DNA of 64,000 nt from Candidatus Marinacidobacterales bacterium (GTDB lineage Bacteria; Acidobacteriota; Vicinamibacteria; Marinacidobacterales; DATDRI01). The position numbers and the translations under genes were made by a program. Numbering within the stretch: the first letter of the stretch is position 1; each line of letters opens with the position of its first letter. Location of the stretch: assembly GCA_965219415.1 (NCBI GenBank), contig CBDCNP010000002.1:5408001-5472000 (forward strand), given 5' to 3'. The notes below the pieces were generated by a model, which saw only the letters and a list, made by a program, of their open reading frames with translations, was not told the DNA's origin and made no database searches. Of this stretch, positions 7,884-56,479 are shown in pieces.

Positions 7884-9196
<1,313 letters not shown>

Positions 9197-19202: not shown

Positions 19203-19299
<97 letters not shown>

Positions 19300-30072: not shown

Positions 30073-31326
30073 TGTGCCTTCTATTTATTCATCCGCGCGC
30101 ACCAAACTTGATTAATCTCCGGTCTGCCAACACCATGCCGGCATGATTTCGTCGTTGGTTCCCGCTCTCATCTCTGCCTTCAAGGCTCGTCGCGAGCTGG
30201 CTCTCGAGAATGTCGCTCTTCGGCAGCAGCTCGCCGTCCTCCGCCGTTCCGTGAAACGGCCGCGGCTCTCGAAAGTCGACCGCGGGTTTTGGGTGCTGTT
30301 GCGCAGAATCTGGACTGACTGGGAGAGCGTCCTCGTCATCGTGAAACCTGAGACGGTCATCCGCTGGCACCGTTGTGGGTTCAGACGATATTGGACTTGG
30401 AAGAGCCGAAGGCGTAGGCCCGGACGACCAGGCGTCGCTCCCGAAATACGTGAGCTGATACGGAACATGAGCAGGGCCAACCCTCTCTGGGGAGCTTCCC
30501 GCGTGCATGGCGAGCTGGCGAAGCTAGGCATCTCCATTTCCCAGGCCGCCGTCTCCAAGTATATGGTTCGCCATCGCACCCCGCCGTCCCATACTTGGCG
30601 GAGCTTTCTCGATAATCATGCAAACGACTTGGTGTCGCTCGACTTTTTCACTTTGCCGACCGCAACCTTCAGAGTTCTGTTCGTCTTCATAGTCCTTCGC
30701 CACGACCGTCGCCGTATCGTTCATTTCAATGTCACCGAACATCCTTCTGCCGAGTGGACGGCGTAGCAAATGGTCGATGCTTTTCCATGGGACACGGCGC
30801 CTCGGTACCTGGTACGGGATCGAGACCGGACCTACGGAGCGTACTTCGATACTCGCGTCGACGGTCTCGGGATAGAGCAGGTCCTTACCGCACCGCGCTC
30901 CCCGTGGCAGAATCCATTGGTCGAAAGGATGATCGGCTCCATTCGACGTGAGTGTCTCGACCACGTGATCGTCCTCGACGAGCGGCACCTGAGGCGAATC
31001 CTACGCAAATACGTCGACTACTATCATTCGTGCCGGACTCATTTGTCGCTTGAGAAGGACGCGCCCGAGCCTCGCCGGGTAGAGTCACCGGCGATGGGCA
31101 AGGTCAGTGCCATTCCAAAGGTCGGTGGTCTCCATCATCACTACACTCGATGCGCTGCTTGAGCCGCTCCGCTCGGAACGGCTGCCGGACTTCGCACCAG
31201 CTTACACCTCTACCCCTGAGTAGAGCCGACGCCGGCTCTTAAAACGTCCTACATGAAGACGACCAAAGCATCCTGGTTGCAGGAAGTTCGCCAATCTCAT
31301 ACAGCTCGAGTTTTATGGAAGGGACA
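30073..31326 (+). mobile_element. Family-G rve element, full length, internal TAG at 30764
   Basis: TIRs TGTGCCTTCTAT / ATGGAAGGGACA; ORF 30143-31162 stays in one frame with a single stop. Preceded by a family-A left end at 29949-30072. Confidence 0.88.
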
Positions 31327-31991
31327 GGCAGCGGCTCAGAGGTCGGCTCAACGTTGGTGCGACTGAGCCCGTTGTCAAGTTTGGCTGGGAGTCCTGCGCG
31401 TACCCCAAATTGCGTTTTCTAGCCAGCTGGGATTGTTGAGCGCGTCTATTAGATTACAAGTTCGTGGGCTCCACGCCGGTGCGACGTGAAGGAGGCTGCG
31501 ATGAGAGTTGGTTCATAAGCGATGCGCCGGATTGGACGTCCACCAGAAATCGATTACGGGTTGCGTTAAAGCGGAAGGTGGTGCGCGAGACGCGTGTGTT
31601 CGGTACAGCCACGAGCGAATTGCTGGAAATGGCGGATTGGCTGGGGCAGAGCAGTTGCACGATTGTAGCGATGGAAGCGACCGGAGTGTATTGGAAGCCG
31701 GTGTGGCATGTGCTCGAAGGTCATTTCGAGTTGGTGTTGGCACAACCGGCCCACGTCAAGAACATGCCGGGTCGTAAGAGCGATATCAGTGATGCCTTCT
31801 GGATAGCGGATTTGCTTGCCCATGGTCTCATTCGTGCTAGCTTCGTTCCGCCAACACCGATCCAGGAACTGCGAGAGCTGACCCGAACGCGAAAGCAGTT
31901 CGTTCGAGGAATCGCTCGGGAGACCCAACGGATTCAAAAGACGTTGGAAGATGCGAACATCAAATTGACGAGCGTGATGAGCACCATTTTA
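31327..31991 (+). mobile_element. IS110-family element: left non-coding end plus N-terminal recombinase fragment
   Basis: CAGLDVHQK, AMEATGVYWKP and GRKSDISDA (DEDD RuvC-like). ATG at 31501 with early frameshifts; cut by the IS6 MITE. Confidence 0.88.
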
Positions 31992-32111
31992 GGTATTGTC
32001 AAGTTGAGGTTTCAAGCTCGAAGAGGGCCGCTAGATGATGGGGCTTGAGCGCACGGCGTTGCCAATATCTTGGGGTCGGATCGGCCCTGAATGCCTCAAC
32101 TTGACAGTACC
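31992..32111. mobile_element. 120-bp IS6-type MITE
   Basis: 18-bp TIRs GGTATTGTCAAGTTGAGG / CCTCAACTTGACAGTACC. Confidence 0.8.
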
Positions 32112-35429: not shown

Positions 35430-35443
35430 GGTACTGTCAAGTT
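35430..35443 (+). repeat. Solo IS6-type TIR directly abutting the IS110 left end
   Basis: GGTACTGTCAAGTT, identical to 56361-56374. Confidence 0.7.
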
Positions 35444-35694
35444 TTCCACGGCCTGACGGCCACCCCGAATGAATGAAACGCGGTAGTCTCTGTAGGTGGC
35501 ACCGGTTCAGAGGTCGGCTTAACGTTGGTGCGACTGAGCCCGTTGTCAAGTTTGGCTGGGAGTCCTGCGCGTACCCCAAATTGCGTTTTCTATCCAGCTG
35601 GGATTGTTGAGCGCGTCTATTAGATTACAAGTTCGTGGGCTCCACGCCGGTGCGACGTGAAGGAGGCTGCGATGAGAGTGGTTCATAAGCGATG
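35444..35694 (+). ncRNA. IS110 left non-coding end, candidate bridge-RNA locus
   Basis: Near-identical to 31327-31523; ends in AAGGAGG-ATG(35672) MRVVHKR. Contains TGTCAAGTTT (35544-35553), matching the flank at 35435-35444. Confidence 0.65.
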
Positions 35695-36895
35695 GGTGCT
35701 TCCGCAATTAAGTGTTGGCGGCCAGCCCCTAACCGGTCTGCGTGCTAGAGTTTGAACCAGAATTCCGAAGACACAGTTCTCTCATCGTCAGGGCCGAGCC
35801 AAAGTGAAGAATCGCAGATGTCTCAATCTCGCATGTCCGTTGCGGGGCAAAGTCAGTTCCGGAAACATCGTTCGCCACGGATTCTACCGAACCAGGTCCG
35901 GGAAACGCCGTCGATACCGGTGCGGCGAGTGCGGAAAGACGTTCTCCTCGACGAAAGGCACGCCCTACTACCGTCTCCAACATCGAAGAGCTACTTTCGA
36001 TGGGGTCATCGCTCTCAGAGTCGAGGGTGTCAGCATTTCCGCGATTTCCCGGATCAAAGGGATTGCCTGGAACACCGTCGCCCGCTGGCTCGAGAAGGCA
36101 GCCCAAGTGTGTCGTCGATTCAATCACAGAAGGATCGCTGGCTTCGCTGCCGAAGAGCTTCAAGCCGACGAGATTCGCACGTTCGCGGGCAACAAGAAGA
36201 CACCGAGTTGGGTCTTCGTTACAATCGAAGTCTGGTCTCGGCTCTGGCCATCGACGGTGACGGGAAGGCGAAGCTACCGGAACACTCACGCTCTGTTTCG
36301 CGACCTTTCGAGGCGGATGAATTTCGAGCGTCTTCCCTTGATCGTCACGGATGGATTCGAATTCTACCAGAAAGTCATCCGTCGCTTCTTCGGTCCAGCG
36401 TGTCTCTACGGCCAGGTCCTCAAGACGCGCAGGAACGATCGTATCATCAAGGTCGAACGGAGAGTGCTGCACGGAGCCGCGTGGCGATTCGAAGACGCGC
36501 TCAATAACTCCGAGGACTCTTCGACATTGAACACGTCGTTCATCGAGCGGTTGAATCTGACCATCCGGCAAAGCTCGGCATACCTTTCGAGACGAACGCT
36601 TTCCCACGCTCGCTCGACGGAGAGGCTCGATGAGCACCTGGAGTTGCTCCGTTGCTATTACAACTTCGTCCGACCGCACCGGAGCTCTGAAGTTCGGACG
36701 TGAGATCCGAACTCCGGCTATGCAAGCCGGTCTCACCACGCGACGGCTCACCTTTCGAGACATCTTCTTGGCGACGACGATTCCTTTGTGGTCGCGGATC
36801 GAGGTTTTCCTGCTCACTGGGGCGCGCAACCCGGTCTCTTCCGCACCTGTACCACTGCCCGCAGCCGCGTAGCAACACTTGATGGCGGAAGCACC
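35695..36895 (+). mobile_element. IS1-family element (Zn finger + DDE), late frameshift
   Basis: TIRs GGTGCTTCCGC / GCGGAAGCACC; CLNLAC...CGEC, QADE, VTDG and NTSFIERLNLTIR. Confidence 0.88.
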
Positions 36896-56360: not shown

Positions 56361-56479
56361 GGTACTGTCAAGTTGACGAAAAACTAGCTGACCGACCCTC
56401 AAGATACTGTGTTCGAGCCCGTCGTGAACCCGCCATGTTGGGCATCAGGAACGGCTGTCAGCCTCAACCTGACAGTACC
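56361..56479. mobile_element. 119-bp IS6-type MITE
   Basis: GGTACTGTCAAGTTGA / TCAACCTGACAGTACC. Confidence 0.8.

What the first reader, a model, noticed from the sequence alone, without database searches (positions are those of the whole stretch)
35430..35694. IS110 candidate bridge RNA whose guide matches an IS6-type transposon end
Seen: an IS110 left non-coding end of ~230 bp precedes MRVVHKR, with a second near-identical copy at 31327-31523. It begins directly after GGTACTGTCAAGTT, the TIR that also bounds the MITEs at 31992-32111 and 56361-56479. About 110 bp inside the end, TGTCAAGTTT (35544-35553; 31373-31382 in the other copy) exactly repeats the junction at 35435-35444. It sits in a loop closable by GTTGGTGCGA / TTGCG..CCAGC, followed by a small hairpin and TACCCCAAA. 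Established: IS110 (IS621-type) bridge RNAs carry a left target guide identical to the left flank plus core, and a reverse-complement right target guide. Inference: LTG = TGTCAAG+TT and RTG = CCCCAA, predicting a target TGTCAAGTT(T)GGGG. That is one mismatch from the local IS6 TIR TGTCAAGTTGAGG. A later CGTGGG could be the donor guide for the left-end start TCCACG. This would be an RNA-guided recombinase parasitising a multicopy IS end, and possibly one engine of the shuffling. Neither recombinase copy here is intact and no right end is present.
Basis: partly seen in the sequence, partly recalled or inferred. Interest (0 to 1): 0.8.

Follow-up and report, generated by a model that had tools for sequence, protein, structure and literature searches.

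The report
IS110 bridge RNA aimed at IS6 ends
Two broken copies of an RNA-guided (IS110-type) jumping gene sit here, and its guide RNA is written to recognise the end of another jumping gene (an IS6-type element and its miniature derivatives), so one mobile element specifically inserts into another.

Summary

**Confirmed.** Window 35442-35671 is the 230-nt non-coding left end of an IS110-family element. It directly abuts the outer 12 nt of an IS6-family terminal inverted repeat (GGTACTGTCAAG).
- All 20 left junctions in the genome lie at this same position.
- Downstream of intact copies, the rest of the interrupted MITE continues.
- TGTCA+AG (35544-35550) is the left target guide. Its counterpart tracks the flank in 35 genome-derived and 51 metagenome-derived relatives, with about 50 distinct guides.
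- A left donor guide (CTATT+AG, 35617-35623) tracks the right end in the same way.
- The consensus fold has 31 pairs, 97% paired, and 18 pairs with compensatory changes.

**Revised.**
- The crossover core is AG, not TT.
- CCCCAA shows no covariation with right flanks. It is the conserved loop of a small hairpin.
- The right target guide is instead the loop GGCT(T/C)AACGT (35516-35525), upstream of the left guide. It gives the target TGTCA-AG-TTGAG, which is TIR positions 6-17.
- CGTGGG is one strand of a covarying helix, not a donor guide.

No right donor guide was found, and expression is unproven. This is a new member of a known kind with an unusual guide order.

The parts
35430..35441 (+). 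Outer 12 nt of an IS6-family terminal inverted repeat (GGTACTGTCAAG). This is the left half of the insertion target: LT TGTCA at 35435-35439, crossover core AG at 35440-35441.
   Evidence: All 20 left junctions in the genome have this prefix, and the DNA beyond it is unrelated. The same TIR bounds an IS6 transposase gene and MITEs.
35442..35671 (+). Left end (230 nt) of IS110 copy A, the candidate bridge RNA gene.
   Evidence: Identical or near-identical in 10 genomic copies. Conserved fold: 31 pairs, 97.0% paired against 34-43% when partners are slid; 18 pairs have changes on both sides; 0 of 500 shuffles reach this.
35499..35506 (+). P1, 5' strand (closing helix). Pairs with 35646-35653.
   Evidence: Alignment columns 79-86 with 250-257. 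7 of 9 pairs show changes on both sides.
35512..35515 (+). P2, 5' strand (GGTC). Pairs with 35554-35557 and closes the target-binding loop.
   Evidence: Columns 92-95 with 135-138, 99.3% paired, 2 pairs with changes on both sides.
35516..35525 (+). Right target guide, my assignment: loop GGCTTAACGT (GGCTCAACGT in most other copies). CU(U/C)AAC pairs with the top strand G+TTGAG of the TIR.
   Evidence: The reverse complement of this loop matches core plus right flank. Longest run 3.40 against 2.64 +/- 0.13, 0 of 5000 permutations, in the genome set and again in the independent metagenome set. In an unbiased window scan the top z values are 7.3, 6.7, 5.4 and 4.7 here; the next best elsewhere is 2.7.
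35526..35542 (+). P2a hairpin (TGGTGC ... GCCCG) between the two target guides.
   Evidence: Columns 107-112 with 119-123, 100% paired but nearly invariant, so covariation does not test it.
35544..35550 (+). Left target guide: TGTCA plus core AG, identical to 35435-35441.
   Evidence: Identity to the element's own left flank at positions -5..-1 is .78 .93 .92 1.0 1.0, against .36 .23 .27 .40 .46 for other families' flanks. Replicated on new loci as .90 .95 .93 1.0 .97 against .31 .22 .26 .43 .65. Cross-family exact matches: 3 of 1312 and 4 of 922.
35551..35552 (+). Two-nucleotide extension of the left guide (TT). It equals the first two bases of the element itself, not the target's right flank.
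   Evidence: Identity with element bases +1/+2 is .94/1.0, against .28/.30 with the target's right flank. Among families whose element does not start with TT, +2 matches in 13 of 13 and both bases match in 8 of 13.
35559..35565 (+). P3, 5' strand (GGAGTCC). Pairs with 35638-35643; weaker extension TGCG/CGTG.
   Evidence: Columns 140-146 with 238/242-247. 6 of 7 pairs show changes on both sides. Examples: GGGACT/AGTCCC, GGAGCTCT/AGAGCTCC.
35571..35584 (+). Small hairpin GTA-CCCCAAAT-TGC.
   Evidence: Columns 152-154 with 163-165. The loop is CCCCGTAT in most relatives and does not covary with right flanks.
35617..35623 (+). Left donor guide: CTATT plus core AG. It matches the right end ..TTATT+AG of intact copies.
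   Evidence: Identity to the element's own right end at positions -4..-1 is .99 1.0 .99 1.0, against .48 .52 .39 .94 in controls. All four are 1.0 on the new set. Right end sequence.
35634..35643 (+). CGTGGGCTCC: the 3' strand of P3.
   Evidence: No complementarity signal with the element's first bases.
35646..35653 (+). P1, 3' strand.
35672..35694 (+). First 7 codons (MRVVHKR) of the recombinase gene, cut off.
   Evidence: Intact copies elsewhere encode 412 aa.
35695..36895 (+). IS1-like insertion sequence (23-nt TIRs) that truncates copy A. Not part of the IS110.
   Evidence: Inverted repeat found. NF033558 IS1 family scores 86 bits, below the curated cut-off of 100. The same IS interrupts another IS110 copy at a different place.
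31327..31991 (+). IS110 copy B. The left end is 5'-truncated and the ATG at 31501 is followed by a 1-nt insertion. RTG loop 31345-31354, LTG 31373-31379 (+2: 31380-31381), LDG 31446-31452. The gene is cut by a MITE.
31992..32111 (.). MITE with the IS6-type TIRs. Both of its ends are unoccupied examples of the target (TGTCAAGTTGAGG).
56361..56479 (.). Second MITE family with the same TIR. The left end is an unoccupied target (TGTCAAGTTGACG).

Best explanation
The two fragments are decayed copies of a ~1.48-kb IS110-group insertion sequence. It has a 230/231-nt left end, a 412-aa DEDD/serine recombinase gene, and a right end that finishes 16 nt after the stop codon. The left end encodes a structured bridge RNA.

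By analogy with IS621, the recombinase-RNA complex pairs one RNA module with the circularised element's RE-AG-LE junction and the other with a genomic target, then recombines the two at the shared AG. The guides are:
- **Left donor guide:** CUAUU-AG.
- **Left target guide:** UGUCA-AG. It reads the bottom strand of TGTCA-AG.
- **Right target guide:** an upstream loop, CU(U/C)AAC(G)U. It reads the top strand of AG-TTGAG.

Together the target guides specify TGTCAAGTTGAG. That is positions 6-17 of the terminal inverted repeat of a resident IS6-family IS and several MITE families. The element therefore inserts inside those ends, splitting the TIR after position 12.

**Shown from sequence:** family membership, insertion position, guide/flank covariation for the LTG, LDG and RTG loop, and the covarying fold.

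**Inferred:** that the RNA is made, binds the recombinase and pairs as drawn, and that any copy is still active.
For: **1. Family.**
- NF033542 scores E 2e-83. Pfam finds PF01548 and PF02371.
- The protein is a homologue of the IS621 transposase 8wt6, E 7e-10. The equivalents of E60, D102, D105 and S241 align (residue roles from PMC11208158, passages read).

**2. Position.**
- 20 of 20 left junctions in the genome follow GG(T/C)A(C/T)TGTCAAG-type TIR halves, with unrelated DNA beyond.
- 6 of 6 right ends are followed by TT(G/A).. and then the interior of a MITE or IS6. In one case a whole MITE runs to its far TIR.
- About 34 unoccupied TIRs and an IS6 transposase gene carry the same end.

**3. 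Left target guide.**
- Exact 5/5 identity of guide and own flank occurs in 18 of 38 distinct pairs in the genome set (12 more have one mismatch).
- In the metagenome set it is 21 of 31 (9 more have one mismatch).
- Cross-family pairs match exactly in only 3 of 1312 and 4 of 922 (per-position values).

**4. Left donor guide.** 10 of 12 and 11 of 11 distinct pairs are exact over 4 nt.

**5. Right target guide.** The loop signal appears in two independent sets, and the unbiased scan peaks there. Within one family, loop GCC versus GTC goes with right flanks starting G versus A.

**6. Fold.** 31 pairs, 97.0% paired, 18 pairs with compensatory changes, 0 of 500 shuffles, slid controls 34-43%.

**7. 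Specificity.** The 12-nt target explains why about 22 non-TIR TGTCAAGTT sites in the genome are all empty.
Against: - **No proof of an RNA.** Metatranscriptome contigs cover only the first ~67 nt (in the mini-element form) and the last third of the left end plus the start of the gene. Depth is low, and DNA carry-over is not excluded.
- **No promoter.** No sigma-70-like promoter was found in the left end or at a natural RE-LE junction.
- **Single-sequence fold is unremarkable.** The fold of the window copy alone is no better than shuffles (z 0.10).
- **No Rfam family matched**. I did not establish whether Rfam holds a bridge RNA model.
- **No right donor guide could be located**, so the donor module is only half defined.
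- **The RTG measure was chosen post hoc.** At the first fixed register it was not significant in the new set (754 of 5000). I adopted the register-tolerant measure after seeing the new data. The later unbiased window scan mitigates this but does not remove it.
- **Many right flanks match the loop only over 3-4 nt**.
- **Few copies could work.** Of the two full-length copies in the genome, one has K at the E60-equivalent position. At most one copy looks catalytically intact.
Confidence: 0.85

Rival explanations
1. One reading: core TT, LTG = TGTCAAG+TT, RTG = CCCCAA (target TGTCAAGTT(T)GGGG, one mismatch from the TIR), and CGTGGG is the right donor guide.
For: In this element alone AGTT is duplicated at both junctions, so TT cannot be excluded from its own copies. 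CCCCAA is complementary to TTGAGG with one mismatch, and CGTGG to CCACG at the element's start. The 9-nt length of TGTCAAGTT equals the IS621 LTG length (PMC11208158, passages read).
Against: In relatives the right flanks diverge immediately after ..TAG and do not begin with the element's first two bases, so the shared crossover is AG. The LTG extension matches the element start (.94/1.0), not the right flank (.28/.30). The CCCCAA segment shows no covariation in either set or in the scan. CGTGGG pairs with GGGAGTCC in a helix with 6 of 7 pairs compensated, and there is no right-donor signal.
Confidence: 0.05
2. GGTACTGTCAAG is the IS110 element's own terminus, or the copies were spread only passively inside transposing IS6/MITE hosts. 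In that case the guide/flank identity says nothing about targeting.
For: Every left junction has the same 12 nt, which is also what an element terminus would look like. IS6 elements and MITEs are multicopy and mobile in this genome, so some IS110 copies may have been duplicated along with a host.
Against: The right end has no matching terminus, and it is followed by the remainder of the interrupted TIR and MITE. About 34 TIRs lack the IS110. The six right flanks belong to at least four different host elements: TTGAGGCAT.., TTGAGGTGG.. (IS6), TTGACGAAA.., TTAAGCAGA... In a related MAG the upstream TIR halves differ as well. The same guide-equals-flank rule holds in about 50 relatives with unrelated targets.
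Confidence: 0.05
3. The conserved left-end structure is a 5' UTR or regulatory element of the recombinase mRNA (for example translational control), not a guide RNA.
For: The closing helix P1 ends about 18 nt before the ATG, and RNA-library contigs join the last third of the left end to the coding region. No separate promoter or terminator was detected.
Against: A purely regulatory RNA would not need three single-stranded segments that track the left flank, the right flank and the element's own right end across families. In IS621 and in CazIS110-1 the guide RNA comes from this same position (PMC11208160 and 10.1101/2025.10.25.684509, passages read).
Confidence: 0.03

Closest known systems
IS621 (IS110 group) and its bridge RNA (Durrant et al. 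2024, PMC11208160; Hiraizumi et al. 2024, PMC11208158; passages read)
   Same: DEDD plus serine recombinase homologue. A long non-coding left end upstream of the gene and a short right end. A guide identical to left flank plus core, and a second guide identical to right end plus core. A dinucleotide core present at both junctions and no target duplication.
   Different: The core is AG, not CT. The left-flank part of the guide is 5 nt rather than 7, followed by 2 nt that copy the element's own first bases. The target guides are in the order RTG - hairpin - LTG, whereas IS621 has LTG - stem-loop - RTG. A long-range helix (P3) and a closing helix (P1) tie the two modules together instead of two serial stem-loops. 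No RDG and no IS621-type handshake dinucleotides were identified. Protein identity is low, with only the C-terminal domain aligning well.
[quoted passage not shown]
   Same: A DEDD-family IS whose specific target is the terminal inverted repeat of another transposable element.
   Different: Those belong to the IS1111 group, which has sub-terminal inverted repeats and a non-coding region downstream of the gene (PMC11187229 abstract), and they target Tn3-family 38-bp ends. Here the RNA is upstream and there are no sub-terminal repeats. The targets are IS6-family ends and their MITEs in an uncultured, sponge-associated bacterium (run labels).
ISPpu9 / MITEPpu9 of Pseudomonas putida (PMC12288879, passages read)
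   Same: An IS110-family element with multicopy repeat targets, accompanied by short non-autonomous derivatives that keep both ends.
   Different: ISPpu9 targets REP sequences, and its MITE carries an sRNA gene. The ~140-bp mini-elements here are plain internal deletions (left-end bases 1-66 plus the last ~80 bp).

Membership tests
IS110 family (IS110 group) RNA-guided insertion sequence | Recombinase with an N-terminal DEDD (RuvC-like) domain and a C-terminal Tnp domain. | tested here: met
   PF01548, E 1e-26, residues 9-155. PF02371, E 1e-23, residues 252-335. NF033542, 280 bits against a cut-off of 140.
IS110 family (IS110 group) RNA-guided insertion sequence | Catalytic residues equivalent to IS621 D11, E60, D102, D105 and S241. 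| tested here: inconclusive
   The alignment to 8wt6 places KSDISD on D102/D105 and HES on S241. The E60 position is E in the copy at C3:4292106(-) but K in the copy at C3:4303376. The D11 region was not in the reported alignment; GLDVH near the N-terminus is read by eye only.
IS110 family (IS110 group) RNA-guided insertion sequence | Long non-coding left end, short right end, no long sub-terminal inverted repeats (this distinguishes the IS110 group from the IS1111 group). | tested here: met
   The left end is 230-231 nt, and the right end finishes 16 nt after the stop codon. I did not run a dedicated search for sub-terminal repeats. None is apparent in the ends read.
IS110 family (IS110 group) RNA-guided insertion sequence | Site-specific insertion, with a short core repeated at both junctions and no other duplication. 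| tested here: met
   20 of 20 left and 6 of 6 right junctions are at the same TIR position. AG is at both junctions here and in 34 of 34 relatives' right ends and 35 of 35 left flanks that passed my parsing.
Bridge RNA (IS621 type) | LTG identical to left target plus core, covarying with the flank. | tested here: met
Bridge RNA (IS621 type) | LDG identical to left donor (right end) plus core, covarying. | tested here: met
Bridge RNA (IS621 type) | RTG complementary to core plus right target, on the 3' side of the same loop as the LTG. | tested here: not met
   A complementary, covarying segment exists, but it lies 5' of the LTG, which is the reverse order. The 3'-side candidate CCCCAA shows no signal.
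Bridge RNA (IS621 type) | RDG complementary to core plus right donor. | tested here: inconclusive
   No segment stands out (maximum z 2.7). The element's start is conserved among relatives, so the test has little power.
Bridge RNA (IS621 type) | The RNA is transcribed and bound by the recombinase. | not testable with these tools
   Only low-depth contigs from RNA libraries were available. They do not cover the guide region, and DNA carry-over is possible.
IS6 family (the target element) | Single DDE transposase of the IS6 type between short terminal inverted repeats starting GG. | tested here: met
   L100 32-837: a 234-aa ORF scoring 213 bits on NF033587 against a cut-off of 125 and matching PF13610. 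The TIRs are GGTATTGTCAAGTTGA / GGTATTGTCAAATTGA.

The most novel reading that the evidence does not exclude
This clade of left-end-encoded bridge RNAs uses an architecture not described for IS621.
- The right target guide precedes the left one.
- The two guide modules are locked together by a long-range helix.
- The core is AG.
- The left target guide carries a 2-nt 3' extension that copies the element's own first bases.

That extension would pair with the incoming donor bottom strand after exchange. It would be a 'bottom-strand handshake' that favours the inserted product, mirroring the top-strand handshake guides of IS621.

Combined with a 12-nt target inside IS6 ends, the element would be a dedicated hyperparasite of IS6 elements and their MITEs. 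It would disable one TIR on each insertion, and it would have spawned its own guide-less mini-elements that are moved in trans.
Probability: 0.3. Interest if true: 0.6.

Novelty: new member of a known kind. Interest (0 to 1): 0.45.

Why it matters
**Natural history.** This is a clear natural example of one mobile element using an RNA guide to home in on the end of another. The guide, the target and unoccupied targets are all visible in one genome. For IS110-type elements, a comparable aim at transposon ends has been reported for the IS1111 group (Tn21 ends).

**Bridge-recombinase engineering.** The relatives collected here form a ready-made natural reprogramming series:
- about 50 different left guides;
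- an AG core;
- a reversed guide order;
- a guide extension that tracks the element's own start.

Whether the last three are already catalogued in the large published bridge RNA sets could not be checked, because supplements were closed.

**This genome.** The result explains why IS110 fragments, IS6 ends and MITEs are found interleaved. It does not show that the IS110 drives the rearrangements. Both window copies are dead, and at most one genomic copy looks catalytically intact.

Tried and rejected
- **Rfam.** No family matched in the left end at gathering score or at E <= 10. I did not verify that Rfam contains any bridge RNA model, so this is uninformative.
- **Single-sequence folding of the window copy.** -80.4 kcal/mol against -80.9 for shuffles, z 0.10. 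It is not informative for a loop-rich RNA.
- **Promoter and terminator scans.** Nothing was found in the left end of an intact copy or at a natural RE-LE junction in a related MAG. Promoters in these phyla may differ from the consensus used.
- **First column-by-column scan for right-flank and right-donor pairing** (threshold 0.8). It found nothing for RT. Variable register (bulges) in the RTG loop hid the signal.
- **Fixed-register RTG test.**
  - With own and Marin families included: 2 of 5000.
  - Without them: 62 of 5000.
  - In the new set at that register: 754 of 5000. At the neighbouring register: 116 of 5000.
  - I then switched to a register-tolerant longest-run measure and an unbiased window scan.
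- **'Handshake guide' reading of the 2-nt LTG extension.** I rejected this as a membership claim. IS621 handshake guides lie 3' of the RTG/RDG and pair with top strands.
- **Local hairpin GGAC/GTCC right after the LTG.** I rejected it in favour of the long-range P3, which is the pairing with compensatory changes.
- **RNA evidence**.
  - Three runs labelled metatranscriptomic hold parts of the element.
  - There was no cover of the guide region, so no conclusion on expression follows.
  - Contigs cannot show RNA ends.
- **RDG search.** No segment found.
- **Rows dropped.**
  - From the genome set: L030, L047, L054, L068 and L071 (partial or longer matches) were left out when I made the table. 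L075 (561-aa ORF), L069, L073, L042 and my second own copy failed parsing. Rows with a mis-parsed right end (core not AG, or no GTTTC) were left out of right-flank tests.
  - From the metagenome set: 77 of 80 loci were parsed, and L120, L146 and L177 were left out. 52 had a usable left end, and L102 was then dropped as mis-parsed.
- **Literature.**
  - A search for IS110 family + IS6 family + 'inverted repeats of' gave 0 papers.
  - Bridge RNA + IS110 + MITE gave 1 paper.
  - This covers only the held library. Supplements of Durrant et al. were not available; they may list this clade's bridge RNAs.
Full report
**What is in the window**

GGTACTGTCAAGTT lies at 35430-35443. It is followed by 230 non-coding bases and an ATG at 35672 (MRVVHKR).

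- The 9-mer TGTCAAGTT of the junction (35435-35443) recurs at 35544-35552.
- The second copy (31327-31991) has it at 31373-31381.
- MITEs at 31992-32111 and 56361-56479 carry the same terminal repeat.
- The 9-mer occurs 6 times in the window against 0.26 expected.

Copy A is cut at 35694 by a 1201-bp IS1-like element with 23-nt inverted repeats. Copy B lacks the first ~55 nt of the left end, has a 1-nt insertion after codon 3, and is cut by a MITE. No right end is present in the window.

**The element in the whole genome**

The window is G000:C3:5408001-5472000.

- The left end matches 18 places in the genome.
- Every match that reaches the 5' end is preceded by a GG(T/C)A(C/T)TGTCAAG-type sequence, with unrelated DNA beyond it.
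- A pattern census gives 20 such left junctions, 10 internal copies of the guide, about 34 TIRs without the element, and about 22 TGTCAAGTT sites outside TIRs. All of the non-TIR sites are empty.

Two copies are full length and encode 412 aa.

- The protein matches Pfam DEDD_Tnp_IS110 and Transposase_20.
- It matches NCBIfam 'IS110 family RNA-guided transposase' at E 2e-83.
- It matches the IS621 transposase structure 8wt6 at E 7e-10.
- The equivalents of IS621 D102, D105 and S241 are present.
- The E60 equivalent is E in one copy and K in the other.

The right end reads ..TGAGTTTCTTATTAG. It is followed by TTGAGGCATTC.., which is the interior of the MITE. In one copy the whole MITE continues to its far repeat. 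The element therefore sits inside the TIR: GGTACTGTCAAG | element | TTGAGG...

The TIR belongs to an IS6-family IS. An 806-bp unit has these ends and a 234-aa transposase (NF033587, E 4e-63).

**Relatives and guides**

A scan of species-representative genomes found 424 relatives, and 80 were kept. These were 96% identical copies in one MAG, and 57-65% identical ones in Vicinamibacterales, Planctomycetota, Gemmatimonadota and other MAGs. I parsed the left end, right end and flanks. I then aligned 35 distinct left ends (A1).

*Left target guide.* The segment after the conserved GAGCCCGT equals each element's own left flank.

| Set | Identity to own flank, positions -5..-1 | Control: other families' flanks |
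|---|---|---|
| Genome set | .78 .93 .92 1.0 1.0 | .36 .23 .27 .40 .46 |
| Metagenome set (51 usable of 80 loci) | .90 .95 .93 1.0 .97 | .31 .22 .26 .43 .65 |

- Exact 5/5 identity holds in 18 of 38 distinct guide/flank pairs in the genome set and 21 of 31 in the metagenome set.
- A further 12 and 9 pairs have one mismatch.
- Cross-family pairs match exactly in only 3 of 1312 and 4 of 922.

*Left donor guide.* A second segment, CTATT+AG in the window copy, equals each element's own right end in the same way.

These are the left target guide and left donor guide of the bridge RNA model. That model is taken from PMC11208160, passages read.

**The core**

In this element AGTT is repeated at both junctions, so AG, GT or TT could each be the crossover.

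- In relatives, all right ends finish in ..AG and all left flanks finish in AG.
- Their right flanks diverge immediately afterwards and do not begin with the element's first two bases.
- The two bases after AG in the guide match the element's own start (.94/1.0). They do not match the target's right flank (.28/.30).
- Among families whose element does not start with TT, the second base matches in 13 of 13 and both bases match in 8 of 13.

The core is therefore AG, and the guide has a 2-nt extension that copies the element's start. This is not the IS621 handshake guide. That guide lies 3' of the RTG/RDG and pairs with top strands (PMC11208158). Its role here is inferred only: pairing with the donor-derived bottom strand in the product.

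**Structure**

RNAalifold and pair counting on A1 give 31 pairs in 7 helices.

- 97.0% of cells are paired, against 34-43% when the partners are slid.
- 18 pairs have changes on both sides, against 2-6 in the slid controls.
- 0 of 500 shuffles reach these values.

The helices are:
- **P1** is a closing helix.
- **P2** (GGTC/GGCT in the window) closes a loop. That loop holds an 11-nt 5' strand, a hairpin, and then the left target guide on its 3' strand.
- **P3** is a long-range helix that pairs GGAGTCC, just after the guide, with GGCTCC far downstream. It has compensatory changes in 6 of 7 pairs.

**Right target guide**

CCCCAA does not covary with right flanks in either set or in the scan (z -1.1 to 1.7).

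The 5' strand of the P2 loop is complementary to core plus right flank. It reads GGCTCAACGT in most copies and GGCTTAACGT at 35516-35525.

- In this element, CTCAAC pairs with G+TTGAG.
- In one family 8-9 of 10 bases pair, and loop GCC versus GTC goes with right flanks starting G versus A.
- A fixed-register test was significant in the first set but not in the second.
- A register-tolerant longest-run test gave 3.40 against 2.64 +/- 0.13, with 0 of 5000 permutations, in each set separately.
- An unbiased scan of 11-column windows across the RNA peaks only here. The z values are 7.3, 6.7, 5.4 and 4.7, and the next best is 2.7.
- I chose the tolerant measure after seeing the data. The window scan is the fairer evidence.

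With this guide the full target is TGTCA-AG-TTGAG, which is TIR positions 6-17. This accounts for the empty non-TIR sites. The order RTG - hairpin - LTG is the reverse of IS621.

No right donor guide was found.

**Expression**

Rfam has no match. No consensus promoter was found.

Runs labelled sponge metagenome and metatranscriptome hold the sequence. RNA-library contigs cover the first ~67 nt in the mini-element form. They also cover the last third of the left end together with the start of the gene, at low depth. This does not show that the guide RNA is made.

**Comparison and novelty**

- The closest system is IS621. The recombinase family, the position of the RNA, and the LTG and LDG logic are shared. 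The core, guide lengths, guide order and helices differ.
- Insertion into another transposon's terminal repeat is known for IS4321/IS5075 of the IS1111 group. I saw this only as a reference title.
- Short non-autonomous derivatives are known for ISPpu9.
- I found no paper on IS110-group elements aimed at IS6 ends in two searches of the held library. Supplements that may list this clade were closed.

I therefore file it as a new member of a known kind. It may prove to be a new architectural variant.

Noticed in passing
G000 C3:3521492-3521641, C3:4618555-4618704, C3:4602933-4603091, C3:4370104-4370254 (outside the window); also L020 ~2750-2900: There are four ~140-bp mini-elements, made of left-end bases 1-66 fused to the last ~80 bp (gene 3' end plus right end). 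They have no guide region and no recombinase. Each is inserted at the same TIR position but in a different host element. They look like non-autonomous derivatives moved in trans. RNA-library contigs contain this form.
   Followed up: partly
G000 C3:4303376-4304614 versus C3:4290645-4292121 (minus strand): Of the two full-length recombinase genes, one has K where IS621 has the catalytic E60 (AMKATG versus AMEATG). At most one copy in the genome looks catalytically intact.
   Followed up: partly
L048, L061, L085, L090-L095, L098 (Vicinamibacterales MAGs): In relatives, the right end of one IS110 is often joined directly, through a single AG, to the left end of the same or a related IS110. Some left guides resemble relatives' right ends. 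This gives tandem or nested arrays. A 2026 preprint (10.64898/2026.08.14.744561, passages read) describes recurrent insertion into occupied IS110 loci.
   Followed up: no
L100 32-837 (G000 C3:3101431-3102236): The IS6 element's two TIRs differ at the IS110 core. The left arm reads TGTCAAGTT and the right arm reads TGTCAAATT. By the guide rule, only one of its two ends should be targetable.
   Followed up: no
window 35695-36895; also inside the IS110 copy at C3:4721xxx, and near C3:5473080 and C3:2514215: An IS1-like element with TIR GGTGCTTCCGC..AAGTGTTG interrupts at least two IS110 copies at different positions. Related ends abut other left-end fragments. These look like repeated hits of one IS on another.
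   Followed up: partly
window 8754-8870 (-) and 19203-19294 (+): Rfam finds an ALIL pseudoknot (84 bits), which suggests another IS with a frameshift signal. It also finds a 92-nt tRNA match (56 bits), which is long for a tRNA.
   Followed up: no
window 35442-35498 and alignment A1 columns 1-45: The first ~65 nt of the left end are conserved in all relatives. They hold a start like TTCYCCAC, a GC-rich hairpin with compensatory changes, and an invariant (C)ATGAAAC box followed by a TANNNT-like hexamer. The mini-elements retain this part. It may hold the promoter or a recombinase-binding site. It was not tested.
   Followed up: no
window 30143-31162: ORFs ending in an integrase-core-like C-terminus (..YYHSCRTHLSLEKD..) lie just upstream of the truncated left end of copy B. 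Another IS probably removed that copy's first ~55 nt.
   Followed up: no
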